Below are positions 4,968 through 62,709 of a DNA stretch of 64,000 nucleotides, one piece after another. Both the position numbers and the translations under genes were made by a program. The stretch is from Nitrospirota bacterium (lineage in GTDB: Bacteria > Nitrospirota > Thermodesulfovibrionia > Thermodesulfovibrionales > JdFR-86), in the NCBI GenBank assembly GCA_963721805.1, contig CAVRJY010000005.1, forward strand, positions 19,318 to 83,317, given 5' to 3'. The notes below the pieces were generated by a model. That model was not told where the DNA came from and did no database searches. It worked only from the letters and a program-made list of their open reading frames with translations. Numbering within the stretch: the first letter of the stretch is position 1; every line of letters starts with the position of its first letter.

Positions 4968-5177
4968 GAGCGTCTTGAAAGCGCTCGAAGCGTCTTGAAA
5001 GCGCTCCGAATCGCTTGATGCTGCGTTGGACTTCAAAAACTCGCCCTCTATGTACATCCAAGTACACCATCGGGCGGTTTTCTTGTCCTGCCTTGCCTGA
5101 AGACGATTTAGGCGCGCTTTCGGGGGGAGAGAATAACGGAGCCCCCCGCGCCCCACGAGGTCAACGGCATTGATTGG
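4968..5177 (-). repeat. SRE copy R1 (full length; head variant b, body type 1)
   Basis: Head GGTCAACGGCAT at 5159-5170, core CATCGGGCGG/GTACA motifs. Tail carries a 20-bp tandem duplication (4970-4989 and 4990-5009). Confidence 0.85.
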
Positions 5178-5710: not shown

Positions 5711-5884
5711 CCTTCCTTGCCAAAGTCGCGCTAAATACGCGTGATACGTTGTCACGGCTCGGAAATCCGTCCTCCAGAGTACATCTCAGTACACTTGCGG
5801 ACGTTTTCCTCGCCGTTCCTAGTCTGACGCGATTTATCGCGCTTTAAGTATCCGCTGCATAATCGTGCGAGCGGTCAACGGCAT
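5711..5884 (-). repeat. SRE copy R2 (head type 2, body type 2)
   Basis: Tail CCTTCCTTGCCAAAGTCGCG at 5711, head GCGGTCAACGGCAT ending at 5884. Abuts R3 head to head. Confidence 0.85.
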
Positions 5885-6079
5885 ATCTAATTAAGCAGTT
5901 GACCTTGGGGGTGCGGGGGTCCAGCGGCTGGGCCGCGTATAACCCCCGAAAGCGCAGCCAAATCGTCTTCAGACTAGGCAGCGGCGAGAAGATCGCCCGA
6001 TGGTGTACTTGGACGTACATAGAGGGCGAGTCTTTGAAGCCCAACGACGTATCAAGCGATTTGGGGCGCTTTCCCTTCC
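5885..6079 (+). repeat. SRE copy R3 (head variant a, body type 1)
   Basis: AT box ATCTAATTAA plus GCAGTTGACC at 5895-5904. Tail GATTTGGGGCGCTTTCCCTTCC ends 3 nt before the pfkB-like stop. Confidence 0.85.
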
Positions 6080-6082
6080 CGC

Positions 6083-6992
6083 TTAGAGCTCTTCGAAGTG
6101 ACTAAGCGCCTTAAACCCTCTATAGCGGTTCTCTATCTCGCGATAGTCGAGAGAGCGGAGCCTATCCAGGCTAAACGCCTCGACATTAAACGAGGCCATG
6201 ACAGAGCCCATCACTACCGCGCGCCGCATCGCGGCCTCGCCGAAGTCCATCGAGTTCGCGAGGTATCCGATGAACCCGCCCGCGAAGGTGTCGCCCGCGC
6301 CGGTCGGGTCGTAGACGTCCTCGAGCGGGTATGCCGGGGCCGCGAAGACCCCGTTGGCCGAGAACATCAGCACGCCGTACTCGCCGCGCTTTATCACGAC
6401 CGTCTGTGGCCCGAGCGTCATGATCACACGCGCGGCCTTCACGAGGTTGCGTCTCGCCGGTGAGCTGCCGGGCCTCGGCGTCGTTGATCAGCAGTATGTT
6501 GACGAGCTTGAGTGTCTTAAGCAGCGAGTCGCGCTGGCCCGAGATCCAGAAGTTCATCGTATCCATGGCGATGACCTTGGGGGCCTTGACCTGCCCCACG
6601 ACCTCGCGCTGGAGGTCGGGGTGTATATTGGCGAGGAAGACGACCTCGGCCTCGCGGTGCGCGGCGCTCAGTATGGGCTTGAAGGTCTCAAAGACGTTAA
6701 GCTGCGTATCGTGCGTGCGTGCCTCGTTTAGCTCGTATGTGTATGAGCCCTTCCAGCGGAAGGTCTTCCCGGCGACGCGTTCTAATCCCGAGAGGTCGAC
6801 CCCGCGCGATTTGAGGAACTTGACGTGCTTGTCCGGGAAGTCCTCGCCGACTACGGCGACGAGGCTTACGTCCGTGAAGTAGCTGGCCGAGGTCGAAAAG
6901 TACGTGGCAGAGCCCCCGAGCGCGTCTTCGACCTCGCCAAAGGGCGTCTTTACGGAATCCAGCGCCATCGAGCCCACCACCAGTAGTCCCAT
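6083..6992 (-). pseudogene. PfkB-family sugar/nucleoside kinase, frameshifted
   Basis: ORFs 6186..7010 and 6083..6442 are N- and C-terminal halves (DPTGAGDTFAGG motif in the C-half). One extra base sits near 6445-6452 (ACGCAACCTC vs expected ACGAACCTC). Confidence 0.7.
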
Positions 6993-11377: not shown

Positions 11378-11386
11378 GGCGTCCTC

Positions 11387-11575: not shown

Positions 11576-11622
11576 GCCTTATTATAGCACTCCCGGCTTC
11601 AAGTAAATCCCGGACGCACTAT

Positions 11623-11842
11623 CTCTAATAAAAGCCGTTGACCACGGGGGTGCGGGGGGCGTCCGTTATCCTCTCCCCCCGAAAGCGCGCCCAAATCGGC
11701 TTCAGACAAGGGGACCGGTTGGCCCCTTTTCTTTAGGAAGAGGGGTCCGTGACCTCCGCCCGATGGTGTACTGTGACGTACTTAGAGGGCGAGTCTTTGA
11801 AGACCAACGACGTATCAAGCGATTTGGAGCGCTTTCACTTCC
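11623..11842 (+). repeat. SRE copy R4 (solo; head variant b; body with embedded terminator-like hairpin)
   Basis: CTCTAATAAAA plus GCCGTTGACC at 11634-11643. Hairpin GGGGACCGGTTGGCCCC plus T-run at 11710-11734. Tail ends 35 nt before dnaE. Confidence 0.85.
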
Positions 11843-15618: not shown

Positions 15619-15813
15619 CCTTCTTGAAAGCGATCCAAAGTTCCGGGATACTGCGTCACGTCTCGGAAATCCGTCCTCGATGTACGTCTCAGTACACCGT
15701 CGGACGTTTTCCTCGCCGTTTCCTTGTCTGCCGAAATTTGGCCCGCTTTATGGGGTTAAACGCGGCCCAGCCGCTGGACCCCATACCCCGTGGTCAACGG
15801 CGTTAAATTAGGG
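15619..15813 (-). repeat. SRE copy R5 (head variant a, body type 2, unique covarying P2)
   Basis: Tail CCTTCTTGAAAGCG at 15619. Head GGTCAACGGCG at 15792-15802 plus AT box. Confidence 0.85.
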
Positions 15814-16166: not shown

Positions 16167-16194
16167 TCGTTCTGTGCATAAGTAAATAGAGGCT

Positions 16195-16243
16195 ATAGAC
16201 ACCACGGCCCCTCGTTCGAGGGGCCGTGGTGTCTATATGTTTA
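16195..16243 (+). terminator. Very long perfect hairpin (19-bp stem)
   Basis: ATAGACACCACGGCCCCTC ... GAGGGGCCGTGGTGTCTAT. Weak T-run. Confidence 0.55.
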
Positions 16244-16310: not shown

Positions 16311-16511
16311 GGGGCAGCGGGAGCAAACCAGCCACTATTATAATGCCGTTGACCGCTCGCACGATTATGCAGGGGAAGGTTAAAGTGCGAGAAATCGTGT
16401 CAGACAAGGAACGGCGAGGAAAACCGTCCGCAGTCGTACTGGGATGTACTTCGAGGACGGATTTCCGAAGCCGTGACGACGTATCACGCGCATTTCGCGC
16501 GCTTTGAGAAC
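16311..16511 (+). repeat. SRE copy R6 (head type 2, body type 2; core from 16336)
   Basis: GGGGCAGCGGG extension, TATAAT at 16339-16344, GCCGTTGACC at 16345-16354. Tail ends at the stop codon of the response regulator. Confidence 0.85.
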
Positions 16512-24325: not shown

Positions 24326-24457
24326 CCTTCTTCAAAGCGCTCCAAATCGCGTGATACGTCGTCAGTTCTCGAAAACTCGCCCTCGGAGTACATCACAGTA
24401 CACCTCCGGGCGGTCTTCTTGCCCTGCCTTGTCTGAAGACGATTTGGCGCGCTTTCC
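24326..24457 (-). repeat. SRE copy R7 (5'-truncated: lacks head and P1 5' strand)
   Basis: Tail CCTTCTTCAAAGCGCTCCAAATCGCG at 24326. Body type 1 with AAGAC/GTTTT (G-U) helix. Ends at GCGCGCTTTCC. Confidence 0.8.
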
Positions 24458-24489
24458 TAAGAGTACCGGCTGGCTGTATAATAATCTCC

Positions 24490-28726: not shown

Positions 28727-28935
28727 ATCTTCTAAAGTCGCGCTAAATACGCGTGATACGTCGTCACCGTTCGAAAAACGATCCTCGAAGTATGTCCATA
28801 TACGACTGCGGGGGTCACAGACCCCTCCTGTAAAGAAAAAGGTGCCCATGGCACCCCTAGTCTGACGCGATTTATCGCGCTTTAAAGTGGTCATTGCATA
28901 ATCGTGCGAGCGGTCAACGGCATTGATTAGAGCAT
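28727..28935 (-). repeat. SRE copy R8 (head type 2; body with embedded hairpins; GTAT/ATAC P4 variant)
   Basis: Tail CTTCTAAAGTCGCGCTAAATACGCG. Hairpins at 28808-28857. Head GGTCAACGGCAT ending 28923 plus TGATTAGAGCAT. Confidence 0.85.
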
Positions 28936-29433: not shown

Positions 29434-29519
29434 GGGGCAGCGCCCCTTGGCTGCCGAAATTTATCGCGCTTTGATGTAGCTTATGCCTAACCGTGCGAGC
29501 GGTCAACGGCATGTTGAGG
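29434..29519 (-). repeat. SRE copy R9 (3'-truncated: head, P1 and first part of P2 only, ending at a GGGGC..GCCCC hairpin)
   Basis: Head GGTCAACGGCAT at 29501-29512. CCGAAATTTATCGCGCTTTG resembles R5. Hairpin at 29434-29446. Confidence 0.7.
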
Positions 29520-29524
29520 CTACC

Positions 29525-30666: not shown

Positions 30667-31028
30667 CTTCATTAACAATAGTTAATCGAAAGTTAATAGA
30701 AAACGCACAGGGCTCAATTTTTCCTATAACCTTCTGTTTATATATAAACCAAAGTTTGGCATTCTTTAGTGTATAGTGGTGACATGAGCATGATAGAATC
30801 ATATTTGATGGGCTGGACAGGCGAGGATGCAGGGTTCCGCACTTGTTCGGATAAATCGCTAAATACCGCTCTTTTTATCCGAACATCCGAACAAGACGGA
30901 CTCAGTGAAGCTATATATTCCGCAGGGTTAGCCTCGTTTTTGTCTCCAACATCCGAACAAAAAAGGCAAAAACGCGCGCGCACGCGCGCGGAATGCGTAA
31001 CTATACCTAAGCGCGAACGTCCGAACAC
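30667..31028 (+). repeat. Module X1: 360-bp AT-rich module fused to the head of R10
   Basis: Roughly 75-80 percent identical (by eye), with no indels, to 47670-48032. Contains ATTAAC/GTTAAT sites, GTTTATATATAAAC, five ATCCGAACA-like sites and a (CG)n palindrome at 30973-30990. Confidence 0.8.
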
Positions 31029-31205
31029 GCCTTTGACCTCGTGGGGCGCGGGGGGCCTCCGTAATGTTCTCCCCCCGAAAGCGCGCCCAAATCGGCTTCA
31101 GACAAGGCAGGGCGAGAAGACCGCCCGATGGTGTACTGTGACGTACATAGAGGGCGAGTCCTCGCAGCCCAACGCAGTATCAAGCGATTTGGCGCGCTTT
31201 GCACC
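31029..31205 (+). repeat. SRE copy R10 (head variant b, body type 1)
   Basis: GCCTTTGACC at 31029-31038. Tail GATTTGGCGCGCTTTGCACC ends 37 nt before ald. Confidence 0.85.
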
Positions 31206-35398: not shown

Positions 35399-35597
35399 AC
35401 GCTTTTTGGAAAGTCGCACTAAATCGCGTGATACTGCGTCGCGAGTCAAAAATCGCCCTCGGAGTACATCCCAGTACACCATCGGGCGGTCTTCTCGCCG
35501 CTCCTAGTCTGACGCGATTTATCGCGCTTTGGTGTAGCCTCGCATAATCGCGCGAGCGGTCAACGGCATTTATTAGAGCATCCCAGCCGCTGCCCCT
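35399..35597 (-). repeat. SRE copy R11 (mosaic: head type 2, body type 1, tail type 2)
   Basis: Head GGTCAACGGCAT at 35558-35569, TTATTAGAGCAT, and extension CCCAGCCGCTGCCCC at 35582-35596. Confidence 0.85.
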
Positions 35598-35725
35598 CGG
35601 ACTGGCGATGAAATATTTCATGAGATAAAATCCGCTCGCGATGTTTTGAAAAATATTGTATTATTCATCATCCTTGCGAGTTGAGCAAATTTTGTATCTA
35701 AAGGGGTTTATTGGAGGTTAATCCG

Positions 35726-36310: not shown

Positions 36311-36334
36311 TGGCATTTTTACAGAGAACGATGA

Positions 36335-36904: not shown

Positions 36905-37096
36905 CTCTAATTAATGCCGTTGACCTTGGGGTGCGGGGTCCAGCGGCTGGATCGCATAACCCCGAAAGCGCGCCCAAATCGTCTTCAGACAAGGAAACGG
37001 CGAGGAAAACGTCCGATGGTGTACTGAGACGTACATCGAGGACGGATTTCCGAGACGTGACGCAGTATCAAGCGATTTGGAGCGCTTTGAAGAAGG
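36905..37096 (+). repeat. SRE copy R12 (mosaic: head variant a, body type 2, tail type 1)
   Basis: CTCTAATTAAT plus GCCGTTGACC at 36916-36925. Tail ...GCGCTTTGAAGAAGG ends 7 nt before the PilZ stop. Confidence 0.85.
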
Positions 37097-40872: not shown

Positions 40873-40902
40873 TAACTCTGAATATTACGAGCGAAGAGGG
40901 AA

Positions 40903-41034
40903 AGGGGGCCGGATGGCCCCTTCTCTTTTATGGGAGGGGTCCGTGACCCCCGCAGGTGTACTGGGATGTACTCCGAGGGAGCGGCTGCGAGCCGTGACGA
41001 CGTATCACGCGATTTCGGCTCGCTTTCTAGAAGG
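40903..41034 (+). repeat. SRE copy R13 (5'-truncated; begins at the terminator-like hairpin)
   Basis: GGGGGCCGGATGGCCCC plus T-run (40904-40930), GGGGTCCGTGACCCC (40936-40950), then body and tail. The tail overlaps the ccsA-like stop codon. Confidence 0.75.
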
Positions 41035-44181: not shown

Positions 44182-44789
44182 CTCGGCACCTTTATTATAT
44201 GCCTCACCGCGCCGCCTGAGTGCGGGAGTTCGACGTCTATGACCTCGCACTCGACCCCGGCGATCTCCTCTTCGTAACGCGGCCCTTTATTCAGCACGAA
44301 AGCGCCGCCGGGGGCGACTATGTCCCCTGCCCCTTCAATAAATTCCCTCACACTAAATAGCGCGCGCGTCACCGCGATGTCCGCGCTGATGCCCGAGGCC
44401 TCCGAGACCTTGGCGTTGATAACCGTGATGCCCGTAAGATTGAGCCGCCGGATGATATGCCGAAGGAACGCGCACTTCTTCTTCGCGGGCTCGATCAGGT
44501 ATACCGTGATATCCGGGCGCATTATCTTGATAGGCACGCCCGGAAACCCCGCGCCGGTGCCGATGTCCGCGAGGCTGTGCACCTCCGGGCCGATAGCGCG
44601 CAGGTATAGGCAGCTGTCCAGCATGTGCTTTACAGCGATCTCATTGGCGTCGCGCAGCGCGGTGAGGTTGTGCGTGCGGCCCCAGCGGCTGAGCTCGTCC
44701 ATGTGAAGCACCATAGCCGAGACCTGCGCGGCGGTGGCCTCGATGCCGAGGCTGGCGAGGCCGTCTGAGATTATCTCATCAGGCCGCAC
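44178..44789 (-). CDS. rsmG: 16S rRNA (guanine527-N7)-methyltransferase
   Basis: 203 aa with SAM motif DIGTGAGFPGVPIKI. Immediately downstream of mnmG. Confidence 0.85.
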   Translation of the reverse strand: MRPDEIISDGLASLGIEATAAQVSAMVLHMDELSRWGRTHNLTALRDANEIAVKHMLDSCLYLRAIGPEVHSLADIGTGAGFPGVPIKIMRPDITVYLIEPAKKKCAFLRHIIRRLNLTGITVINAKVSEASGISADIAVTRALFSVREFIEGAGDIVAPGGAFVLNKGPRYEEEIAGVECEVIDVELPHSGGAVRHIIKVPR

Positions 44790-46642
44790 TCCGGCGGTCC
44801 CTCTCTAACATTATGATCAGGAGTGAGAGAGCGACCGGCGTGACGCCGGGTATGCGGCTTGCCTGCCCGAGGCTCCGGGGCCTGACCTCCTCGAGCTTGT
44901 GGCGCACCTCGGTCGAGAGGCCGGTGATCGCGGCATAGTCGAACCCGGCCGGGATCGCCATCGACTCGGCGCGCCGCAGCTTCTCTGCCGCCTCGCGCTG
45001 GCGCAGGATGTAGCCCGAGTACTTCACCTCGGTCTGGATCAGCATCGCATCGTCGGCACTGAACTCGGCGGCGGGCGGCGATATGCGCGAGATCGAGGGA
45101 TAGTCCATCTCCGGCCGCTTAAGCAGCGTATCGAGCATCACACTCTCGGCAATCGGCGAGGTCCCGCGCTCGCTAAGTATTGGATTTGCGTCACGCGGCT
45201 TGCAGCGCGTCGTGCGGATGCGCTCGATCTCGGAAAGCACCAAGCGGCGCTTTTCGCTAAACGCACGGTGGGCATCATCAGAAATCAGCCCGGCCTCGTG
45301 GCCCTTGTCCGTCAGGCGCATCTGGGCGTTGTCGTGGCGCAGCAGCAGGCGGTATTCCGCGCGCGAGGTGAACATGCGGTACGGCTCGTTCGTGCCCTTT
45401 GTCACGAGATCGTCTATCAGGATGCCGATGTACGCCTCGTCGCGGCCAAGGATCAGCGGAGCGCGGCCCTGAAGCGAGAGCGCGGCGTTTATCCCGGCCA
45501 TTATCCCCTGTGATGCGGCCTCCTCGTACCCGGAGGTCCCGTTTATCTGCCCGGCGAGGTAGAGACCGCGTACCGCCTTGGTCTCTAATGAGTGCGTGAT
45601 CTGCGTGGGGTATACGAAGTCGTACTCTATCGCGTATGCCGGGCGCATGATCTCGGCGGCCTCAAGCCCCGCGATAGAATGAACCAGCGCGACCTGCACG
45701 TCATATGGCAGGCTCGTCGAGATCCCGTTTGCGTAGTATTCCTCGGTCTTCAGCCCTTCGGGCTCCAAAAATACCTGATGCCGCTCGCGCGCGGCAAAGC
45801 GCATCACCTTGTCCTCTATCGAGGGGCAGTATCTGGGGCCTATGCCTGTTATCTGTCCACTATACAATGGTGAGCGGTCCAGAGATCCACGGATGATCTC
45901 GTGCGTGGTCGCGTTCGTATATGTCATGTAGCACGGGAGCTGTTGGTTCGTGATCTCGCGGGTCGAGTGCGAAAACGGGGGCGGCGGGACGTCGCCATAG
46001 TGAGCGGTCGTCTTTGAGAAGTCTATCGAGCGGGCGTCTATACGGGGCGGTGTGCCGGTCTTGAGGCGGCCCAATCTCAGGCCCATCGCAGGCGAGAGAT
46101 TCGGATATGCCTAACGCGGGGAACTCACCGGCGCGTCCTGCGCTGATCTGGCTCAGGCCTATGTGCATCAGTCCGTTCAGAAACGTACCGGTCGTGACGA
46201 TCACCGAGCGCCCAGCGATGAACACGCCGATGTTATCGATAACGCCTGTGACTCGTCCGCCCTCATGCGTTATGTCCACGATATTGGCCTGCCGGATCGT
46301 GAGGCCCGCCTGCGCCTCGATCGACTGGCGCATATTGGTGCGGTACAGGGCGCGGTCGGCCTGCGCGCGGAGCGACCAGACGGCGGGGCCCTTAGAGAGG
46401 TTGAGCATCTTGAAGTGGATGCCCGAGCGGTCGGTGACGCGCGCCATCTCGCCGCCCAGCGCGTCGATCTCGCGGACTAGGTGGCCCTTCGCGAGCCCGC
46501 CGATGGCCGGGTTGCAGGACATCTGGCCTATCGTATCGAGGTTCATCGTGCAGAGGCACGTACGCATACCCATCCTAGCCGCAGCCAGAGCGGCCTCGCA
46601 ACCGGCGTGGCCGGCACCGATAACTATTACGTCGAATGACAT
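44779..46642 (-). pseudogene. mnmG: tRNA uridine 5-carboxymethylaminomethyl modification enzyme MnmG, split by one frame change
   Basis: ORF 45860..46642 (GAGHAGCEAA FAD motif) and ORF 44779..46086 (GRLKTGTPPRID onward) together give full-length MnmG. The shift lies near 46085-46100. Confidence 0.85.
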
Positions 46643-46674
46643 CCCTTATAATAACATCCGCGCTATTTCAGTCG

Positions 46675-46863
46675 CCTTCTTCAAAGTCGCGCGAAATACG
46701 CGTGATACTGCGTCAGGGCTTCAGAAATCCGTCCTCAACGTACGTCACAGTACGCCTCGGACGTTTTCATTGCCCTTCCTTGTCTGACACAATTTCTCGC
46801 GCTTTAGCAATGAGCTGCCTGCGCGTGCGAGCGGTCAACGGCTTTGATAAGAGGGGGCACTCG
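46675..46863 (-). repeat. SRE copy R14 (head type 2, body type 2)
   Basis: Tail CCTTCTTCAAAGTCGCG at 46675 (32 nt from the mnmG start). Head GGTCAACGGC at 46843-46852 plus TTTGATAAGAG. Confidence 0.85.
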
Positions 46864-46903
46864 GCCCGGCCGCTGCTCCGGAGCTCCCGAGGAAGGCTAT
46901 TAA

Positions 46904-47479
46904 TTAAGCAGAAGATGTTTTATTGAAAGCTCTCCCTGAGTGAATCCATGAAGCAATTACAGCTATCAATAAAACCAAATCAAATAAAATAAGGCATTTT
47001 TCCCAGCGTGTAATATTTTGAAGAGAGTCATAATTAGATATCAAAAAAATCAATAAAGGACCAAGCGGCATAAGAACCAGTAAAAAATTACGCCCCAAGG
47101 CTACAAGCCATAGCTGTCCGCTAGTACTTTGGTGAAAGGTTTCCCATTCAAATGCATCATTGTAAGTTAATAATCTAATTCTTGGATATAAAATGCTTGA
47201 AAAATACCTTCCGATTCTGTAAACCATAAGCTGATTATCGTAATACAGCAAAACAAGAGGTGCCGTTATAATTGGAGCAACGAGCATAATTGATGCAAAT
47301 GATTCTTCTCCATGGAGTTTAACATAAGCCGCAAGTGCACCAGCTAAAATCACTATCAGAACATTAAGTATTGTTGAGTTAATTGTAAGTCTAGTCTTTT
47401 GTTCATCGCGCAAGGCTCGGTATTCTGTGAGATAAACTTCAATATCTTTCTTGTCCTGTATTTCTTCTGACATTAACAA
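46904..47479 (-). CDS. AT-rich polytopic membrane protein, hypothetical
   Basis: 191-aa ORF with four hydrophobic segments. No family recognised. Confidence 0.5.
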   Translation of the reverse strand: MLMSEEIQDKKDIEVYLTEYRALRDEQKTRLTINSTILNVLIVILAGALAAYVKLHGEESFASIMLVAPIITAPLVLLYYDNQLMVYRIGRYFSSILYPRIRLLTYNDAFEWETFHQSTSGQLWLVALGRNFLLVLMPLGPLLIFLISNYDSLQNITRWEKCLILFDLVLLIAVIASWIHSGRAFNKTSSA

Positions 47480-47669
47480 ACACCTTTACCTATCAACCTT
47501 GTCCCAGCTTTCGTTGAAGCCCTAAGGGCTCGCCTTGCCATTATCATAAACTGCCTACATTTATCTGTCAATAATATTTTGCAGCAAGACAACCGTGAGG
47601 CTTAATCATATCGCCATATTCGCATACGTTCGGAACTGGTTTATGGGAAAGAGTTCCCATGGCATCTCT

Positions 47670-48032
47670 CTTCATTAACCATAGTTAATCGAAAGTTAAT
47701 AGAAAACGAATGGCCCCTAATTTTTCCTATTATCTTCGGTTTATATATGAACCAAAGTTTGGCATTCTTTAGTGTATAGTGGAGGCTATGAGTATGATAG
47801 AGTCCTATTTGATGGTCGCGGCAAGTGTTATGGATGTCCGCGCCGCGTGTTCGGATAATGGGCCAAAAACATCGCTTTTTATCCGAACATTCGAACAGGG
47901 GAACTTTTCAAAAGCTAGTAAATCCGGTGGGTTAGCTCCGATTTTGCCCCCAACATCCGAACAAAATCGGCAAAAACGCGCGCGTGCGCGCGCGGTATGC
48001 ATATATATGCCTAAGCGGGGATATCCGAACAT
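47670..48032 (+). repeat. Module X2: second copy of the 360-bp AT-rich module, fused to the head of R15
   Basis: Collinear with X1. GGAGG then ATG at 47794. Inverted repeat GTTCGGATAA (47849-47858) / TTATCCGAAC (47879-47888). (CG)n palindrome at 47977-47994. Confidence 0.8.
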
Positions 48033-48201
48033 GCCGTTGACCGCTCGCACGCGCAGGCGGGAGAAACTTAAAGCGCGAGAAATCAGCGTCAGACTAGGAG
48101 CGGCGAGGGAAACGTCCGAGGGTGTACTGAGACGTACATCGAGGACGGATTTCCGAAGCCGCGACAACGTATCACGCGATTTGGCGCGCTTTGGAGAAAA
48201 C
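48033..48201 (+). repeat. SRE copy R15 (head type 2, body type 2)
   Basis: GCCGTTGACC at 48033-48042. Tail GATTTGGCGCGCTTTGGAGAAAAC. Confidence 0.85.
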
Positions 48202-48219
48202 TACAAACGCAGCTTTCTC

Positions 48220-48687
48220 TTACTCGGCCTCTACGATCTTGTAGTTTACGTTGTGTTCCAGATCCTTGCGCAGCGAATGATACACCGAGCAATACTTGTC
48301 CTTGGAGAGCGCAATCGCCCTGTCCATCTTCTTCGGGTCAATATGCTTGCCCGTGATCGTTATCATCAGGTCGATGCGCTTGAAGTACTGCGGAGGCGTC
48401 GGGTTGCGCCATCCCATCGTCTCGATCTTGAAGTCCTGGATATCTACGCGCATCTTCTGAAGGAAGCTCACCATGTCTATGGCCATGCACGCGGTTACGG
48501 AGGCCAGCAGGCTCTCCGTCGGCATGCAGCCCCACTCGACCTTCGCGTCGTAGTCGATGACGTAGCCGGTCGATGTGCGCGCGGCGAATATGAGGTCCTT
48601 GTCGTAGGTGAGGGTGAGCTTCATCTCGGGGTTAATCTTGCCCTTGTAGCCCTCGAGCTGCTCTTCAAGCTGCGGTTCTTCTGCCAT
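48220..48687 (-). CDS. OsmC/Ohr-family protein
   Basis: 155 aa with LLASVTACMAIDMVSFL and KYCSVY motifs. Confidence 0.8.
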   Translation of the reverse strand: MAEEPQLEEQLEGYKGKINPEMKLTLTYDKDLIFAARTSTGYVIDYDAKVEWGCMPTESLLASVTACMAIDMVSFLQKMRVDIQDFKIETMGWRNPTPPQYFKRIDLMITITGKHIDPKKMDRAIALSKDKYCSVYHSLRKDLEHNVNYKIVEAE

Positions 48688-50295: not shown

Positions 50296-50688
50296 ATGTG
50301 TTCATCGGTGCCGAGGGCCAAGATAATGATCGTGGAGGACGAGCGGCTGCTGGCCCTCAACCTCAGGCTGTCGCTGGAGGGTATGGGCTACACCGTCACC
50401 GGCATCGCGGATTCGGGCGAGTCTGCCGTGAGCGAGGCCGGGGCCTCGAGGCCGGACATCATCCTGATGGACATAAAGCTCAAGCCCGGCTCGATGGACG
50501 GCATAGAGGCCGCCACGCGCATCAGGGACCTCTACCACATCGGGTATATTTACGTCACCGGCAACTCCGACGAGAGCACCTACCAGCGGGCGATGAAGAG
50601 CATGCCGCTGGGGTACTTCAACAAGCCGCTCAACGAGGATACCTTAGACCAGGCCATACAGGAAGCCATCACCCGCGACTCCAACTAG
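50296..50688 (+). CDS. Single-domain response regulator receiver
   Basis: IMIVEDERLL...DIILMDIKL...KP. Start uncertain (50254, 50296 or 50326). Confidence 0.8.
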   Translation: MCSSVPRAKIMIVEDERLLALNLRLSLEGMGYTVTGIADSGESAVSEAGASRPDIILMDIKLKPGSMDGIEAATRIRDLYHIGYIYVTGNSDESTYQRAMKSMPLGYFNKPLNEDTLDQAIQEAITRDSN

Positions 50689-50695: not shown

Positions 50696-50891
50696 TCTTT
50701 TTCAAAGCGCTCCAAATCGCTTGATACGTCGTCATCAGTCGAAAATAGTCCTCGGAGTATGTCCATATACACCTGCGTCCTATTTTCGCCTTCTTCCTAG
50801 TCTGAAGACGATTTGGCCGCGCTTTCGGGGGTTGGTCGCGGCCCAGCCGCTGGACCCCCGCACCCCCAAGGTCAACGGCTTAGATTAGATA
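50696..50891 (-). repeat. SRE copy R16 (head variant a; private P3 AAAATAG/CTATTTT; GTAT/ATAC P4)
   Basis: Tail GTCTTTTTCAAAGCGCTCC at 50696. Head GGTCAACGGC at 50870-50879 plus TTAGATTAGATA. Confidence 0.85.
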
Positions 50892-51806: not shown

Positions 51807-52331
51807 ATGGTTGGGAAAATCGGTTTTCAAACTGAGATAATTCAAGGATATAGAGAAGAATATTTCAAATCAATTTTAAAGCTCGAACCATTATTCCCGA
51901 TTTCCATCCAAGACTCAAAAGATAAAACAATTGAACATTTGAAAACACCTTCAAACATTAATATTTTTCTCAGGAAAGATGAAAGCATAATCGGCTGGAT
52001 CTTGGGGACGCCACAAAATACTATCTATGAAGAACTAAAAACCGATGATATTGAGATCAAGCCCGATGACGAAATGTATTATATTGATAAAGTTGTTGTA
52101 GTACCTGAACACCGCGAAGGTCTAACCTTTCTCAGGTTGGGAGACGCGCTAATCAATGAGGCAAAAAAACGAGGTTGTCATAAAATATCTGCACATATCG
52201 TATCTGACAACGGACTCCATAAAATAATTATAAGGAAATTTGGCAAATTTATCATAACAAGGAGAAAAGTGTCTTTAGCAATACATGATTTTATTCCATT
52301 TGAGTATATTGAAATATGCTTACCTAAATGA
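51807..52331 (+). CDS. GNAT-like acetyltransferase (cargo paralog 2)
   Basis: 174 aa. Shares blocks N-I-x-x-FL, ELKxDD, PDxxMYYI, RG-x-x-KIS-x-H with 36335..36850. Confidence 0.55.
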   Translation: MVGKIGFQTEIIQGYREEYFKSILKLEPLFPISIQDSKDKTIEHLKTPSNINIFLRKDESIIGWILGTPQNTIYEELKTDDIEIKPDDEMYYIDKVVVVPEHREGLTFLRLGDALINEAKKRGCHKISAHIVSDNGLHKIIIRKFGKFIITRRKVSLAIHDFIPFEYIEICLPK

Positions 52332-52338
52332 CTTACCG

Positions 52339-52881
52339 ATGAAAGGCGAGGGCACCAAGGAGAACAGCACAGAAAAGCTGTTGTCTTATGGCGGCAGGAT
52401 TGCTGAGCTATCCATCGGAATTACCGCAAGTCAATTTTTAGTGTTCGTTTTCGATTATCTTCTTTATCCGTTTATCGTTTATCAATTCGGGCTTCTCATG
52501 GGCGGGATTGTAATGACTATTTTTTCATTGATTGCTTGTTTACTTGTAATGAAAGTTTATGATTGGTCTAAACGGGATTGGTTAGGCATTGAGTCAATAA
52601 AACGGTTAAAGGAATACACAGGAGGTAGAAAAACAGGAAAGATACTGTCATGGATATTAAGACAGAGTAATCCAGTGGTCATGCTATTTCTCTCAATCAA
52701 GTTTGACCCATTTATCGCAACTATATACATGAGACATGGAAGCCACCAATATAACGGCATGAGCAAGAGGGATTGGAAGATATTCTTTACAAGTCTTGTA
52801 CTCAGTAATATCTATTGGACACTCGCAGCCTTCACAGGGGTTACGGTCATAGAGTACGCATGGAGGCACTTATTCAAATAA
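52339..52881 (+). CDS. AT-rich polytopic membrane protein, hypothetical
   Basis: About 180 aa with four or five hydrophobic segments. The stop TAA at 52879-52881 directly abuts the R17 head. Confidence 0.5.
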   Translation: MKGEGTKENSTEKLLSYGGRIAELSIGITASQFLVFVFDYLLYPFIVYQFGLLMGGIVMTIFSLIACLLVMKVYDWSKRDWLGIESIKRLKEYTGGRKTGKILSWILRQSNPVVMLFLSIKFDPFIATIYMRHGSHQYNGMSKRDWKIFFTSLVLSNIYWTLAAFTGVTVIEYAWRHLFK

Positions 52882-53058
52882 GCCGTTGACATTGGGGGCG
52901 CGGGGGGCGTCCGTTGCAGTGCCCCCCGAAAGCGCGCCCAAATCGTCTTCAGACAAGGCAGGGCGAGAAGACCGCCCGATGGTGTACTTGGGCGTACATA
53001 GAGGGCGAGTCTTCGATGCCCAACGACGTATCAAGCAATTTGGCGCGCTTTAAAGAAA
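52876..53058 (+). repeat. SRE copy R17 (head variant b, body type 1)
   Basis: GCCGTTGACA at 52882-52891. Tail GCGCGCTTTAAAGAAAGC ends 5 nt before the rodA stop. Confidence 0.85.
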
Positions 53059-53063
53059 GCGAG

Positions 53064-54182: not shown

Positions 54183-54196
54183 TGTTGGCTCCGGGA

Positions 54197-54405
54197 ACGT
54201 TTAATAAGCCGTTGACCTTGGGGTATGGGGTCCAGCGGCGGAGCCGCGACCAACCCCATAAGGTGCGATAAATCGTCTTCAGGCAAGGAAGGGCGAGGAA
54301 AACGTCCGCAAGTGTACTGTGATGTACTCTGGAGGACGGATTTCCGAAGCCCTGACGCAGTATCAAGTGATTTAGCGCGCCTTCAAAAGGTGTGCAAACA
54401 GCTCT
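54197..54405 (+). repeat. SRE copy R18 (solo; head variant a, body type 2) inserted between mrdA and rodA
   Basis: GCCGTTGACC at 54208-54217 and tail GCGCGCCTTCAAAAGG at 54375-54390. Flanked by AATGCGCACTGTTGGC at 54174-54189 and 54406-54421. Confidence 0.85.
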
Positions 54406-56182
54406 AATGCGCACTGTTGGCCTCCAGGTTGGCGAGGTATGTTTCTATTGCCTTCTTCGCTATGGGCGCGGCGGCCGAGCCGCCGTGGCCTCCGTGCTCG
54501 ACGAGCACCGCGCATGCGATCTCCGGGTGCGAGGCCGGGGCATAGGCCACGAACCAGGCGTGGTCCTTAAGCGCGTCCGGCGTTGCGCTCGCGAGGCGTT
54601 TCTTGTTCGCGTTTGAGTATACCTGCGCGGTGCCGGTCTTGCCCGCGATCACGAAATCGTCGGAGTGCGCGGCGTGGGCCGTGCCGCGCGGGTCGTTGAC
54701 CACGCCTATGAGCGCGCGCTTTACGAGCTCTATGTTCTCGGGGCTGAGGTCATAGGAGTCCGCCGCGGCGCGCTTTGCCTCATACGGGGCTATGCGCTTG
54801 AGCGTCGGCTCGTAGAGCCTGCCGTCGGCCGCGACGGTCGCGATCATCCGCGCGAGCTGAAACGGCGTGACCGCGACGTAGCCCTGCCCGATTGCGGCGT
54901 TGTACGTCTCGCCGAGGTACCAGCTCTCGCCCTTTGTCTTGAGCTTCCACTCCTCGTCCGGTATGAGCCCCGGCCGCTCCATCGCGAGCCCCAGCGTGCT
55001 CGTCGCACCGAGGCCGAGGCGGCGGGCCATCTTCGCTATCGAATCGATCCCGGTCAGCGCGCCGACGGTATAGAAGTACACGTCGCACGACTGTATCAGC
55101 CCGGCCTCGAACGCGAGCGCGCCGTGGCCGCGCTTCTGCCAGCAGCCGAACCGCCACTTGCCGTACTGCAGGCCGCCGTTGCAGACGACGACGCGGCCCG
55201 GCGTGACCTTGCCGGACTCCAGCGCTGCCAGCCCTGTGACTATCTTGAAGGTCGAACCCGGCGGGTACTGGCTTTGGAGCGCGCGGTTGAGCATCGGCTT
55301 TTCCGGGTCGTTTATCAGGCGGCCCCAGTCGCCGCTCTTTATCCCGAAGCTGAAGAGGTTCGGGTCGTAAGAGGGCTTGCTCACCATCCCCAGGATCTCG
55401 CCGGTTGAGGGGCGGATTGCGACGAACGCGCCCTTGCGGTCCCCGAAGGACTCCTCGACGGCCTTCATCATCTCGATGTCTATGCTCAGGTGCAGGCCCT
55501 CGCCCTTCCGGGGCGGGGTCTGAGCGATCACGCGTATCTGCTTGCCGAGGGCGTTGACCTCTATCGCGCGCTCCCCGGGCACGCCGCGCAGGGTCTTGTC
55601 ATAGAGCTTCTCGACCCCGAACTGCCCGATGAAGGCCTGCATCGGGACGTCGGCGAATTCGGGCAGCTCGGCCTGCTCCGGGGTGATGCGGCCGAGGTAT
55701 CCCAGCAGGTGCGCCCCGACCTCGCCGTAGAGGTACTTCCGCGACTTGTCGACCATCACGTTCAGGGCCGGGAAGTCCGAGAGCCGGGCCTCGACCTTCG
55801 AGACCTCCTCGAGGTTCAGGCCCTCGCGGACGATGATCGGGTCAAGCGTATTTCTTGCGCGGTCGGCGCGTTTCTGGAGCCACTGGGGGTCGAGGCCGAG
55901 GAAATCCGCGGCGCGGCCGAGGTCCGTTATGTCGATGAGCTCTGGGTTTAAGGTGATCGAGAACGCGGCCGAGCTCTGGACGAGCGCCTTGCCCCAGCGG
56001 TCGTAGATGATGCCGCGCGGGGCCGGGACCTTCTCGAGCCTCAGGCGGTTTTCAAACGCCATGCGGCTGTATTCGGCGCCCCTGAGTATCTGCAGGTGCC
56101 AGAGCCGTATCGCCAGGATCGAGAAGAATATCCCGATGAAGAAGATGATCGCGAATGAGTTTATGTTGCGTTCAGCTCTCAT
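54404..56182 (-). CDS. mrdA: Penicillin-binding protein 2 (elongasome transpeptidase)
   Basis: 592 aa with SxxK (STFK), SxN and KTG (AGKTGTAQ) motifs. Located in the mre operon. Confidence 0.9.
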   Translation of the reverse strand: MRAERNINSFAIIFFIGIFFSILAIRLWHLQILRGAEYSRMAFENRLRLEKVPAPRGIIYDRWGKALVQSSAAFSITLNPELIDITDLGRAADFLGLDPQWLQKRADRARNTLDPIIVREGLNLEEVSKVEARLSDFPALNVMVDKSRKYLYGEVGAHLLGYLGRITPEQAELPEFADVPMQAFIGQFGVEKLYDKTLRGVPGERAIEVNALGKQIRVIAQTPPRKGEGLHLSIDIEMMKAVEESFGDRKGAFVAIRPSTGEILGMVSKPSYDPNLFSFGIKSGDWGRLINDPEKPMLNRALQSQYPPGSTFKIVTGLAALESGKVTPGRVVVCNGGLQYGKWRFGCWQKRGHGALAFEAGLIQSCDVYFYTVGALTGIDSIAKMARRLGLGATSTLGLAMERPGLIPDEEWKLKTKGESWYLGETYNAAIGQGYVAVTPFQLARMIATVAADGRLYEPTLKRIAPYEAKRAAADSYDLSPENIELVKRALIGVVNDPRGTAHAAHSDDFVIAGKTGTAQVYSNANKKRLASATPDALKDHAWFVAYAPASHPEIACAVLVEHGGHGGSAAAPIAKKAIETYLANLEANSAH

Positions 56183-59782: not shown

Positions 59783-60893
59783 ATGACTAAAGAGGAAATA
59801 AAGCTGCAGGCAGGCCTTCTTAGGGAGCGCACCGATTCCCTAAGAGGGTATCTTTGATCTCCCCACCCTCACGCACAAGCTCGAAGAGATAGACAAGGCA
59901 CTCGGGGCCGAGGACACATGGGCCTCGCACGAGCGCGCCACCGAGCTCAACCGCCAGAAGACCCGCATCCAGTCCACGCTCGCGCCGTTTGAGGCCGCCG
60001 ACCGGAAGATGACATACATCGAGAGCTCAATCGGGATGCTCGACGAGGAGGGCGGCGAGATGTTCGCCCCCGAGCTCGCGGCAGCGCTTAACGAGCTCAT
60101 CCCTGAACTTGACGGCCTCGAGCTTCGGTGCCTGATGTCCGGCGAGCGCGACATCTCAAACGCGATAGTCACGATACATCCCGGCGCGGGCGGCACCGAG
60201 AGCCAGGACTGGGCCCAGATGCTGATGCGCATGTACCTCAGGTGGGCCGAGACGCACGGCCTCGCAACCGAAATCCTCGACCTCCAGCCGGGCGACGAGG
60301 CCGGGATCAAGAGCGTCACGTTCGAGGTCACCGGGCCGTACGCATACGGCAACCTCAAGACCGAGGCCGGGGTGCACAGGCTCGTGCGCATCTCGCCGTT
60401 TGACGCGGCGAAGCGCCGCCACACCTCGTTTTCCGCGGTGCTCGTATACCCCGAGGTCGAGGGCGACGTCGAGGTCGAGCTCAGGGACGAGGACATCAAG
60501 ATGGACACGTTCCGCGCCTCGGGCGCAGGCGGGCAGCACGTCAACAAGACCTCCTCCGCGGTGCGGCTGACGCACATCCCCTCGGGCGTGATCGTGAGCT
60601 GCCAGAACGAGCGCTCCCAGCACAGAAACCGCGAAAGCTGCATGAAGATACTGAAGGCCAAGCTCTACGACCTCGGGCTCAAGGAGCGGGAAAACGAGAT
60701 GGAGGGCATCGTCGGGGAGAAGAAGAATATCGCCTGGGGCAGCCAGATACGCTCGTACGTCCTGCAGCCCTATCGCATGGCGAAGGACCATCGCACGGGA
60801 GTCGAGATCGGCAACGTGGACGCGGTACTCGACGGGGCACTCGACCTGTTCATAAAAGCTGCACTGAAAAATAAACTGGGGCGGACGTCTTAA
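59783..60893 (+). CDS. prfB: Peptide chain release factor 2, requires programmed +1 frameshift
   Basis: ORF0 ATG 59783 runs to an in-frame TGA at 59855. The +1 frame continues DLPTLTHKLEE... into ORF 60009..60893 (SPF and GGQ motifs). Confidence 0.9.
59843..59858 (+). promoter_or_regulatory. prfB +1 frameshift site (AGAGGG TAT CTT TGA T)
   Basis: SD-like AGAGGG 3 nt upstream of slippery CTT followed by TGA (59852-59857), as in the classical RF2 autoregulatory site. Confidence 0.85.
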
Positions 60894-61084
60894 TAAAGTC
60901 GCGCCAAATCGCTTGATACTGCGTCACGGCTTCAAAGACACGCCCTCTATGTACATCCCAGTACACCATCGGGCGGTCTTCTCGCCCTTCCTTGTCTGAA
61001 GACGATTTCTCGCGCATTAAGTTTATTCTTGCGTAATCGTGCGAGCGGTCAACGGCATGATTTGAGCGGCCCATCCGCTGCCCC
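60888..61084 (-). repeat. SRE copy R19 (mosaic: head type 2, body type 1)
   Basis: The tail overlaps the prfB stop (TCTTAATAAAGTCGCGCC). Head GGTCAACGGCAT at 61047-61058. Extension GGCCCATCCGCTGCCCC. Confidence 0.85.
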
Positions 61085-61912: not shown

Positions 61913-61966
61913 AGATTCCTGCGCACAAAAATAATTAATAAGTCTGCATCTACCTTAACCTTTTTA

Positions 61967-62021
61967 TATAGCGCGAGATTTCCGAGGCCGTGACGCAGTA
62001 TCCAGGAAATCTCGCGCTATA
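61967..62021. repeat. SRE fragment R20: foldback built from SRE pieces
   Basis: Perfect 17-bp inverted repeat TATAGCGCGAGATTTCC / GGAAATCTCGCGCTATA. Stem and loop carry GATTTCCGAGGCCGTGACGCAGTATC from the SRE 3' region. Confidence 0.6.
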
Positions 62022-62028
62022 ATGATTT

Positions 62029-62513: not shown

Positions 62514-62709
62514 TATATAACTAAGACGTTGACCTTGGGGGCGCGGGGGTCCAGCGGCTGGGCCGCGTCTAACCCCCGAAAGCGCGCCCAAATCGGCTTC
62601 AGACAAGGCAGGGCGAGAAGACCGCCCGATGGTGTACTGGGATGTACATAGAGGGCGAGTCTTTGAAGCCCAACGCAGTATCAAGCAATTTGGAGCGCTT
62701 TGAAGAAGG
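62514..62709 (+). repeat. SRE copy R21 (head variant a, body type 1; near-consensus reference copy)
   Basis: GACGTTGACC at 62525-62534. Helices listed in the findings. Tail ...GAGCGCTTTGAAGAAGG ends at 62709. Confidence 0.9.

What the first reader, a model, noticed from the sequence alone, without database searches (positions are those of the whole stretch)
46675..48201. Polarity puts the 3' end of each SRE RNA against host flanking DNA on both sides of every islet
If the head-to-tail strand is the functional one, as the G-U evidence suggests, both arms of each unit are transcribed outward from the cargo. Each putative RNA would then end at, or run into, the neighbouring host sequence. Examples are R14 toward the mnmG start, R15 toward the osmC-like 3' end, R4 toward dnaE and R10 toward ald. 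A structured scaffold followed by element-flanking sequence is the layout of the right-end guide RNAs of TnpB-type systems. Outward-reading structured ends could equally act as promoters, terminators, antisense regulators or insulators for the flanking genes. The AT box next to the head is a perfect TATAAT in R6 (16339-16344) and TAATNA-like in most copies. It sits where a -10 element for such a transcript would be, but no consistent -35 is visible. This is a hypothesis only. No partner protein is in the window.
Basis: inference. Interest (0 to 1): 0.55.

Follow-up and report, generated by a model that had tools for sequence, protein, structure and literature searches.

The report
Structured mobile repeats bracketing gene cassettes
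The "outward-pointing RNA ends" are the geometry of head-to-head pairs of a roughly 210-base, hairpin-rich mobile repeat that brackets small AT-rich accessory-gene cassettes in a Nitrospirota-like genome; there is no sign of a guide-RNA system, but the repeat looks like an undescribed kind of non-autonomous mobile element.

Summary
The geometry is real. In all 7 complete pairs the two arms are inverted, heads inward and tails outward, and the four examples given are correct. A distant family in Acidobacteriota contigs follows the same rule. The strand inference also holds. Each arm contains a 125-nt rod hairpin with strong covariation, and the head-to-tail strand folds better in 15/17 copies here and 11/11 distant copies. 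It also folds better under DNA parameters, so this does not prove an RNA.

The TnpB-like guide reading is not supported. Arms lie at both ends, no conserved motif follows the tails, Rfam finds nothing, and the window encodes no nuclease, transposase or recombinase. Arms carry no consistent promoter, and only one arm subtype holds a terminator-like hairpin.

New here: one SRE is a discrete insertion. Three related contigs have overlapping mrdA and rodA. The window has a complete 210-nt SRE there, flanked by a 23-nt target duplication. The closest relative has no copy in 45 kb, against 20 copies in this 64-kb window. Cargo is toxin-antitoxin, HEPN, Abi, GNAT and membrane genes, different in each islet. 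A mosaic junction falls exactly at a conserved head core, GCCGTTGACC.

Best reading: a trans-mobilised, non-autonomous DNA element, REP/BIME- or MITE-like in lifestyle. Its enzyme is unknown.

The parts
46675..46855 (-). R14, left arm of islet H. It comprises the tail GAAGAAGG (46675-46682), the 125-nt rod (46683-46807), a short head hairpin, the core GCCGTTGACC (46833-46842, read on the minus strand) and the AT box.
   Evidence: nhmmer; covariance model 86.4 bits; fold
46856..46900 (.). GC-rich inner module next to the short-type head (GGGGCAGCGG-like). R6, R11 and R19 also have it.
46904..47479 (-). Cargo ORF of 191 aa, a predicted membrane protein with no family match. It reads towards R14 and mnmG.
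47543..47571 (-). Promoter-like site for the cargo gene: TTGACA, 17-nt spacer, TATGAT (11 of 12 matches).
47670..48042 (+). About 370 nt of non-coding module shared with islet E (30667-31038). It holds 3-4 TCCGAACA motifs and ends exactly at the 3' edge of the head core.
   Evidence: (families D15 and D19)
47977..47994 (-). Canonical terminator-like hairpin, CGCGCGCGCACGCGCGCG followed by TTTTT. It would stop transcription entering from the R15 and osmC side. It is conserved in islet E at 30973-30990.
48021..48218 (+). R15, right arm of islet H. It comprises the core (48033-48042), a short head hairpin, the rod (48068-48192) and a 26-nt tail ending CAGCTTTCT, 1 nt from the osmC-family stop codon.
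   Evidence: (115.8 bits)
54196..54405 (+). R18, a complete solo SRE: AT box, core, long head hairpin, rod, and a 22-nt tail ending CAGCTCT. It is inserted between mrdA and rodA.
   Evidence: empty-site alignment with L047, L048 and L049
54174..54195 (+). Target-site duplication, head-side copy (AATGCGCACTGTTGGCTCCGGG). It carries the rodA ribosome-binding site and GTG start.
54406..54428 (+). Target-site duplication, tail-side copy (AATGCGCACTGTTGGCCTCCAGG). It is the 3' end of mrdA, whose TAG stop spans the junction at 54404-54406.
4993..5170 (-). R1 (long head).
5722..5885 (-). R2 (short head). It lies head-to-head with R3, with only a shared AT box between them.
5892..6083 (+). R3 (long head).
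11631..11837 (+). R4, the only arm of islet B (cargo about 10400-11630). Its rod carries a 30-nt insertion.
15622..15803 (-). R5, left arm of islet C.
16333..16507 (+). R6, right arm of islet C. Its AT box reads TATAAT at 16339-16344.
24329..24460 (-). R7, a rod-only solo with no head.
28732..28923 (-). R8, left arm of islet E. Its rod insertion forms a terminator-like hairpin at 28838-28858.
29441..29513 (-). R9, a head-only fragment between the hicBA cassette and the HEPN/DUF2442 cassette.
31026..31202 (+). R10, right arm of islet E.
35409..35570 (-). R11, left arm of islet F, with a probable 24-nt duplication around it.
36913..37093 (+). R12, right arm of islet F.
40899..41031 (+). R13, a rod-only solo of the R4/R8 subtype, with a terminator-like hairpin at 40903-40922.
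50699..50882 (-). R16, left arm of islet I.
52879..53063 (+). R17, right arm of islet I. Its tail starts directly after the rodA TAG stop.
60893..61059 (-). R19, left arm of islet K. It abuts the prfB stop codon.
61966..62022 (+). Mini-rod remnant separating two cassettes inside islet K.
62523..62706 (+). R20, right arm of islet K.

Best explanation
SREs are copies of a non-autonomous mobile DNA element of about 210 nt with two different ends.
- The head has an AT box, a conserved 10-mer GCCGTTGACC and one of two hairpin types.
- The middle is a 125-nt rod hairpin.
- The tail is short and, in full-length copies, ends in SAGCTYT.

Shown: a single unit inserts on its own and duplicates about 23 bp of target. 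The rod fold is conserved by compensatory change across three phyla. The head-to-tail strand is the better folder.

Inferred: an enzyme encoded elsewhere recognises the rod in single-stranded form and makes widely staggered cuts. The head core is a joining or recombination point where AT-rich accessory cassettes are captured or exchanged between two units lying head to head.

On this reading the 'outward polarity' is the geometry of head-to-head pairs. Tails sit against host genes because insertions survive only at the very ends of ORFs in this compact genome. Any RNA effect, such as read-through from cargo promoters into mnmG or 3'-UTR structure, is secondary.
For: - Mobility: three related contigs show the empty site, where mrdA and rodA overlap by 11-14 nt. 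The window has R18 there, flanked by a 22/23-nt direct duplication (score 33-34 against a null maximum of 23).
- Lineage specificity: no rod occurs in 45 kb of the closest relative or in three other related contigs, against 20 copies in 64 kb here.
- A probable second duplication of 24 nt surrounds R11, with the same geometry.
- Fold, family A: 94.7% of cells are paired, 17 of 41 pairs show compensatory changes, and 0 of 500 shuffles reach this.
- Fold, distant families: 90.9% are paired, 28 of 41 pairs are compensatory, and 0 of 500 shuffles reach this.
- Breadth: the covariance model finds the same rod in Acidobacteriota and Armatimonadota contigs.
- Strand asymmetry: the forward strand is more stable in 15/17 and 11/11 rods with RNA parameters and in 16/17 and 8/11 with DNA parameters.
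- Modularity: islets E and H share about 370 nt up to the last base of the core, then diverge into long and short head hairpins.
- Arms of one islet are no more alike than random arms, 0.79 against 0.78 identity.
- Each islet has different cargo and none encodes a transposase.
- Arrays of the form arm-cassette-arm-cassette-arm exist: R1/R2/R3, R8/R9/R10, and R19/mini-rod/R20.
- The same heads-in rule and AT-rich cargo occur in family B.
Against: - No mobilising enzyme is identified, so the chemistry is unknown.
- A 23-bp duplication is unusual for the common DDE insertion-sequence families (my recollection, not checked here).
- No duplication was found around whole two-armed islets. It is therefore unclear whether islets move as units or are assembled in place.
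- Only one empty-site comparison was possible.
- The evidence that the head core is a crossover point rests on one within-window mosaic. The two supporting metagenome comparisons could be assembly chimeras at repeats.
- The strand asymmetry would fit an RNA intermediate or an RNA function equally well.
Confidence: 0.55

Rival explanations
1. SREs act mainly as RNA. They would be transcribed outward from the cargo, or read through from cargo promoters, and act as 3'-UTR stabilisers, terminators, insulators or antisense regulators for the cargo and neighbouring host genes.
For: - The forward strand folds better.
- In most islets at least one arm lies downstream of co-oriented cargo genes. Examples are the cargo promoter at 47571-47543, then the ORF, then R14 and mnmG.
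- The R4/R8/R13 subtype carries a terminator-like hairpin in the forward direction.
- Tails sit within 0-40 nt of host gene ends or starts.
Against: - Arms carry no consistent promoter.
- The arm on the far side of each islet has nothing to drive it.
- Solos R7 and R18 have the largest forward bias, yet host transcription would cross them in the reverse direction.
- The rod lacks a U-tract.
- A canonical terminator sits just inside R10 and R15, which suggests the arm itself does not terminate.
- RNA function does not explain the target duplication or the presence/absence polymorphism.
Confidence: 0.15
2. SREs are SINE-like retroposons. An outward (head-to-tail) RNA would be reverse-transcribed at a nicked target by a reverse transcriptase encoded elsewhere, so its 3' end lands against target DNA.
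For: - The duplications are long (23 and about 24 nt).
- Structure appears to be selected on one strand, with G-U pairs at different positions in different families.
- R7 and R13 lack the head but keep the tail, which looks like 5' truncation.
- A conserved 3'-terminal motif, SAGCTYT, was found.
Against: - No reverse transcriptase is in the window.
- Target-primed retroposition with duplications has not, to my knowledge, been described in bacteria.
- The fold asymmetry also holds under DNA parameters.
- R9 is truncated at the 3' side.
- Retroposition does not explain the inverted pairing around cargo or the mosaic junction at the head core.
- In family B, cargo genes often read away from the arm.
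Confidence: 0.1
3. SREs are a REP/BIME-type system served by a single-copy HUH (Y1) transposase. On this view the rods are oversized REPs and head-to-head pairs are BIME- or REPIN-like doublets of two types. Cassettes lie in the linker, where such enzymes cut.
For: - Copies are intergenic, dense and palindromic, with compensatory evolution.
- Two arm types pair preferentially: 5 of 7 pairs combine a short and a long head.
- R2::R3 is an empty doublet with a short AT-rich linker.
- TnpA-REP binds single-stranded REP and cuts in inverted REPs and in linkers (PMC3333891).
- REPs are known insertion targets (PMC1525189).
Against: - I did not see a conserved 5' GTAG-type tetranucleotide.
- The units are 4-6 times longer than REPs.
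- The IS200/IS605 transposase family to which RAYTs belong is not known to make target duplications (my recollection), yet R18 has a 23-nt one.
- No RAYT gene is in the window.
Confidence: 0.12
4. SRE transcripts are guide RNAs for a TnpB/IscB/IS110-type nucleic-acid-guided protein. The structured scaffold would be followed by a flank-derived guide at both ends of each islet.
For: The only support is the geometry (scaffold 5', flank 3') and the better folding of the head-to-tail strand.
Against: - The scaffold is present at both ends and as solos, whereas IS200/IS605-type elements have no inverted ends and a single right-end RNA.
- No TnpB, IscB or IS110 gene is in 64 kb that holds 20 copies.
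- Rfam gives no match, and I recall its library as including the IscB-associated HEARO RNA.
- No conserved motif lies beyond the tails that could serve as a target-adjacent motif.
- Several tails run into host coding sequence.
- One arm subtype would terminate before reaching the flank.
Confidence: 0.03

Closest known systems
REP / BIME / REPIN elements with RAYT (TnpA-REP) transposases
   Same: - They are dense, intergenic, hairpin-forming repeats kept by compensatory changes.
- Two unit types pair in inverted orientation with a short linker.
- They sit just downstream of genes.
- They are non-autonomous, with the enzyme encoded elsewhere in the genome (PMC3116915, PMC3333891, PMC2817692).
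   Different: - The unit is about 210 nt with distinct head and tail ends, against 20-40 nt for a REP and about 100 nt for a REPIN.
- One mapped insertion has a 23-nt target duplication.
- No GTAG foot motif was seen.
- Linkers hold 0.5-2 kb of AT-rich accessory genes.
- The same rod occurs in three phyla.
MITEs and mobile insertion cassettes (MICs): non-autonomous elements with IS-type ends, with or without passenger genes
   Same: - Inverted ends bracket passenger genes and no transposase is present.
- An empty doublet exists (R2::R3).
- Mobilisation is presumably in trans (PMC6199540, PMC4133298).
   Different: - A single arm is itself a complete insertion whose two termini are unlike each other, so the arms are not simple terminal inverted repeats.
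- No duplication was found around whole islets.
- Every islet carries different cargo.
- No parent insertion sequence is known.
TnpB/IscB omega-RNA (right-end RNA) of IS200/IS605-type elements
   Same: A structured RNA-like scaffold sits next to an element boundary, with its 3' side facing the flank.
   Different: - The scaffold is at both ends and also occurs alone.
- No adjacent nuclease gene is present.
- No conserved flank motif was found.
- The element makes a target duplication.
- There is no Rfam match.
Integron gene cassettes with attC sites
   Same: - Cassettes are small, promoter-poor and often single-gene.
- Cargo is similar: toxin-antitoxin, GNAT and unknown genes.
- They are bounded by structured, strand-asymmetric recombination sites.
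- The mosaic junction lies at a short core (GTTGACC here, GTTRRRY in attC).
   Different: - Sites here are inverted around each cassette, not direct.
- Islets are scattered in core intergenic regions, not arrayed beside an integrase.
- The core departs from GTTRRRY.
- No integron integrase gene is in the window.
Casposons and CRISPR-type Cas1 integration, and target-primed retroposition (SINE-like)
   Same: A long target duplication (tens of bp) comes from widely staggered cuts. As I recall, casposons also insert at the 3' ends of genes.
   Different: The window has no Cas1 and no reverse transcriptase. The resemblance is in the footprint only.

Membership tests
TnpB/IscB guide RNA (IS200/IS605-type right-end RNA) | Scaffold at one end only of an element that lacks inverted ends | tested here: not met
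   The same unit lies at both ends in inverted orientation in 7 of 7 pairs, and also occurs alone.
TnpB/IscB guide RNA (IS200/IS605-type right-end RNA) | A guided nuclease gene (TnpB or IscB) adjacent to or overlapping the RNA | tested here: not met
   No such ORF is in the window. Cargo and unassigned host ORFs were scanned against Pfam. The rest of the genome was not available.
TnpB/IscB guide RNA (IS200/IS605-type right-end RNA) | A conserved target-adjacent motif at the flank and no target duplication | tested here: not met
   Flanks beyond the tails share no motif. R18 has a 23-nt duplication.
TnpB/IscB guide RNA (IS200/IS605-type right-end RNA) | Match to a curated model of a guide scaffold | tested here: not met
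   Rfam 15 found only a tRNA at gathering threshold. At E-value up to 5 over 46600-48300 the only hit was a sub-threshold one inside the cargo ORF (47322-47387, E 0.3), not in an arm.
REP/BIME/REPIN-RAYT | Intergenic palindromic repeats kept as hairpins by compensatory change | tested here: met
   94.7% and 90.9% of cells are paired, and 17 and 28 of 41 pairs show changes on both sides.
REP/BIME/REPIN-RAYT | Inverted doublets of two unit types separated by a short linker | tested here: inconclusive
   R2::R3 is such a doublet, and 5 of 7 pairs combine a short and a long head. The other pairs hold 0.5-2 kb of cargo.
REP/BIME/REPIN-RAYT | Conserved 5' GTAG tetranucleotide at the hairpin foot (PMC3333891) | tested here: not met
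   The rod foot reads AAAGCGCG, and I saw no conserved GTAG in the alignments.
REP/BIME/REPIN-RAYT | A single-copy Y1 transposase gene flanked by the repeats | not testable with these tools
   None is in the window, and the rest of the source genome could not be fetched.
REP/BIME/REPIN-RAYT | Insertion without target duplication (as in the related IS200/IS605 family; my recollection) | tested here: not met
   A 22/23-nt duplication flanks R18.
MITE / mobile insertion cassette | Terminal inverted repeats that are the two ends of one mobile unit | tested here: inconclusive
   Pairs are inverted. However, a single arm is a complete insertion with unlike termini, and partner arms are no more alike than random arms.
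MITE / mobile insertion cassette | Short target duplication flanking the whole unit | tested here: not met
   No significant direct repeat flanks any pair within 90 nt. The only borderline case is a 13-nt match around R1/R3.
MITE / mobile insertion cassette | Passenger genes and no transposase inside | tested here: met
Integron cassette / attC | Sites in direct orientation in an array next to an integron integrase | tested here: not met
   Sites are inverted around each cassette and dispersed. No integrase is in the window.
Integron cassette / attC | Core sites RYYYAAC and GTTRRRY | tested here: not met
   The core is GTTGACC / GGTCAAC, one position off the consensus.
Sigma-70 promoter in the arm | -35 and -10 hexamers at 16-18 nt spacing, conserved among copies | tested here: not met
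   Only scattered matches of 9 out of 12 occur in single copies, and TATAAT is in R6 alone.
Intrinsic terminator | Short GC-rich hairpin followed by a T run | tested here: inconclusive
   The rod does not meet this (only 3 T follow it). It is met in the forward direction by the insertion in R8 and R13, and degenerate in R4.

The most novel reading that the evidence does not exclude
The SRE could be the non-autonomous partner of an undescribed bacterial integration machinery that makes cuts staggered by about 23 bp. The candidates are a SINE-like retroposon copied from an outward head-to-tail RNA, or a substrate of a Cas1-like or other ruler-type integrase. Head-to-head pairs would then serve as a dispersed, integron-like platform for capturing AT-rich accessory and defence cassettes, and the system would be shared by Nitrospirota, Acidobacteriota and Armatimonadota.
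Probability: 0.15. Interest if true: 0.9.

Novelty: new variant of a known kind. Interest (0 to 1): 0.55.

Why it matters
This 64-kb core-genome window holds 20 copies and about 8 cassette islets. They sit inside operons and flush against the stop codons of essential genes such as dnaE, purL, purF, mnmG, mrdA/rodA and prfB. If the reading is right, a small structured repeat is organising where accessory genes enter a compact genome, without any visible integrase. The same rod occurs in three phyla, so this may be a widespread and overlooked route of gene-cassette traffic. It would be a third model beside integrons and REP/RAYT systems. The 23-bp duplication and the one-strand fold give concrete handles for finding the enzyme. 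For the original finding, the practical message is that outward polarity alone should not be read as a guide-RNA layout.

Tried and rejected
- Genome-collection scan. 
- Metagenome and viral scans. A stricter motif found only the distant family B and nothing viral.
- Fetching the source genome. Exact look-ups of PurF, AdoMet decarboxylase and RodA failed. The GNAT look-up returned only a 1.4-kb contig. The 97-kb source contig is listed but could not be read. The partner gene could therefore not be searched for.
- Empty sites for islets H and F. Relatives are not syntenic there.
- First target-duplication test. It used 35-nt windows and was too narrow. I redid it with 90-120 nt.
- Target duplications in family B. 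None were found, but the termini are uncertain.
- PADLOC and NCBIfam on cargo. Only generic helix-turn-helix hits came back.
- TTGACC in the head as a -35. I rejected this because no -10 lies at 16-18 nt in either head type.
- The rod as a bidirectional terminator. I rejected this because only 3 U follow it and a canonical terminator lies just inside R10 and R15.
- SAGCTYT as a universal terminus. Only 6 of 19 arms have it, and in R6 and R19 it lies in host coding sequence.
- Literature. Four searches found no description of this family.
Full report
**The observation**

R14 is a minus-strand copy at 46675-46855 and R15 a plus-strand copy at 48021-48218. In all seven complete pairs the left copy is on the minus strand and the right copy on the plus strand, so heads face the cargo and tails face the host.

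The four examples in the finding are correct:
- The R14 rod ends 40 nt from the mnmG start.
- The R15 tail ends 1 nt from the stop of an OsmC-family gene.
- R4 faces dnaE.
- R10 faces ald.

TATAAT at 16339-16344 is real but unique to R6.

There are exceptions to "every islet":
- Islet B has a single arm, R4.
- R2 and R9 are internal arms.
- R7 and R13 are rods without heads.
- R18 is a complete solo inside the mrdA-rodA operon.

**Anatomy**

Alignment of all copies shows three parts.
- Head: an AT box (often CTCTAATnAAT), the invariant-looking 10-mer GCCGTTGACC (14 exact copies against 0.18 expected), and one of two hairpins, short or long.
- Rod: 125 nt running from AAAGCGCG to CGCGCTTT.
- Tail: begins GAAGAAGG.

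Arms with the short head carry an extra GGGGCAGCGG module inside the AT box.

The rod fold is strongly supported. On a model-based alignment of 17 copies, 94.7% of cells pair, 17 of 41 pairs show changes on both sides, and no shuffle out of 500 reaches this.

**Which strand folds**

- G-U cells outnumber A-C cells 34 to 8, at 13 against 5 pair positions.
- Independent of any alignment, the head-to-tail strand is more stable in 15 of 17 rods.
- Under DNA parameters it is still more stable in 16 of 17, so the data cannot tell RNA from single-stranded DNA.

**Relatives elsewhere**

PurF, RodA and DUF401 homologues place the organism among Nitrospirota, close to Thermodesulfovibrionales.

A motif scan found a distant family B in an Acidobacteriota MAG and in activated-sludge metagenomes. 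The model also found a rod in an Armatimonadota MAG.
- In these 11 copies, 90.9% of cells pair and 28 of 41 pairs are compensatory.
- The apex GUGUACUGNGAYGUAC and several internal loops are conserved.
- The forward strand folds better in 11 of 11.
- The G-U pairs lie at different positions from those in family A.
- Family B arms obey the same heads-in rule where paired. Their head side is always AT-rich cargo, usually one gene for a secreted, lipoprotein-like or unknown protein.

Rfam finds nothing in the arms.

The window encodes housekeeping genes plus cargo:
- HicA/HicB
- DUF4258/DUF2283
- DUF2442
- a Cthe_2314-like HEPN
- Abi_C
- two GNATs
- an AdoMet decarboxylase
- an XRE regulator
- membrane proteins

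It encodes no transposase, recombinase, TnpB, IscB or IS110.

Consensus scans find no promoter common to the arms. The rod is followed by only three T. A terminator-like hairpin in the forward direction exists only in the 30-nt insertion of the R4/R8/R13 subtype. A canonical terminator pointing the other way sits just inside R10 and R15.

Nothing conserved follows the tails that could act as a target-adjacent motif.

The guide-RNA layout is therefore not supported. The outward polarity follows automatically from head-to-head pairing.

The two solos with the largest forward-strand bias are R7 and R18. Both lie between co-directional host genes, where transcription would produce the reverse strand. 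This argues against local outward transcription as the source of the asymmetry.

**The new decisive result**

Three related contigs were compared: L047 (RodA 80% identical), and L048 and L049 (RodA 84%). In all three, mrdA and rodA overlap by 11-14 nt.

In the window the two genes are separated by R18.
- The insertion runs from AACGTTTAATAA-GCCGTTGACC to ...CAAACAGCTCT, at 54196-54405.
- It is flanked by a direct duplication, AATGCGCACTGTTGG(C)CTCCRGG, at 54174-54195 and 54406-54428 (score 33-34 against a null maximum of 23).
- One copy preserves the rodA ribosome-binding site and GTG start.
- The other copy completes mrdA, whose TAG stop is formed at the junction.

A single SRE is thus a discrete insertion with unlike ends and a long target duplication.

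Further observations fit this.
- R11 shows a probable 24-nt duplication with the same geometry.
- About 64 kb from related contigs, including 45 kb from the nearest relative, contain no rod at all.
- The tails of R18, R15 and R13 are homologous and end in SAGCTYT.
- That motif occurs in 6 of 19 arms against 0.47 expected. In R6 and R19 it lies in host coding sequence.
- The RodA and OsmC C-termini are intact, and the tails begin 0-1 nt after their stop codons.

No duplication was found around whole two-armed islets.

**Cassettes and mosaics**

- Every islet has different cargo.
- Partner arms are no more similar to each other than random arms, 0.79 against 0.78.
- Five of seven pairs combine a short-head and a long-head arm.
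- Islets E and H share about 370 nt of non-coding module that stops exactly at the last base of the head core. After it, one continues with a long hairpin and the other with a short one.
- Arrays exist in which an arm or arm remnant separates cassettes: R1-nitroreductase-R2::R3, R8-hicBA-R9-HEPN/DUF2442-R10, and R19-Abi_C-mini-rod-DUF2283/DUF4258-R20.
- In family B, two contigs that are 99.35% identical over 9.2 kb diverge at the loop of the head hairpin. Two others differ by presence of the rod and tail. These are metagenome assemblies and could be chimeric at repeats.

**Conclusion**

The best-supported reading is a non-autonomous mobile DNA repeat mobilised in trans.
- Its rod is probably recognised in single-stranded form.
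- Its head core is a joining point for exchangeable AT-rich accessory cassettes.

It behaves like REP/BIME or MITE/MIC elements but fails defining features of each:
- the unit size and the lack of a GTAG foot motif, against REP/BIME;
- the 23-nt duplication and the unlike ends, against both.

An RNA intermediate (a SINE-like retroposon) or a secondary regulatory role for the RNA is not excluded. The TnpB-like guide reading is unlikely.

Noticed in passing
window 44779-46642 (minus strand): mnmG is split into two overlapping ORFs, 45860-46642 and 44779-46086. This implies a frameshift, which could be an assembly indel or a pseudogene.
   Followed up: no
window 47670-48042 and 30667-31038: The module shared by islets E and H holds 3-4 TCCGAACA motifs. 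It also has a short conserved start, ATGAGYATGATAGARTCNTATTTGATGG, whose three differences are all at third codon positions. This suggests a small coding or regulatory unit reading towards the arm.
   Followed up: partly
window 16194-16237: A perfect 20-bp-stem palindrome, TATAGACACCACGGCCCCTCG...CGAGGGGCCGTGGTGTCTATA, lies inside islet C. It is picked up weakly by the rod model on both strands.
   Followed up: no
window 29501-29541: Next to the R9 head core, an inverted near-copy of the core (GCGGTTGACC) lies 24 nt away, inside the 3' end of the HEPN ORF. The arrangement resembles the empty head-to-head junction of R2::R3.
   Followed up: partly
window 4945-5000: The R1 tail contains a tandem duplication of about 18 nt (GAGCGCTTTCAAGACGCT, twice). 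A 13-nt repeat, CTAAGCGCCWTAA, flanks the whole R1...R3 unit and overlaps the likely holB start codon.
   Followed up: partly
window 2526-2807: Imperfect tandem repeats lie inside the PSP1-domain gene and encode a proline/alanine/glutamate-rich repeat.
   Followed up: no
window 35711-36850 and 51807-52881: Islets F and I both carry a GNAT acetyltransferase next to a membrane protein of about 198 aa, in opposite gene order. They appear to be paralogous cassette content. Islet I also carries an AdoMet decarboxylase.
   Followed up: no
tail-side stop codons at window 5704-5706, 16512-16514, 41027-41029, 50686-50688, 53064-53066 and 54404-54406: Six host genes that read into SRE tails end in TAG. 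The rodA orthologues in relatives end in TGA or TAA, so the element may supply or alter the stop codon at the junction.
   Followed up: partly
L024 960-1090 (Armatimonadota MAG): A second, unrelated long GC-rich palindrome lies immediately next to the rod-like element.
   Followed up: no
L028 about 3830-3870 and 6995-7035: The one-armed family B islet has a short inverted repeat, CTTCAGCCTTCAGC.CTGGCG, at both cargo boundaries. One copy overlaps the 3' end of the neighbouring host ORF.
   Followed up: no
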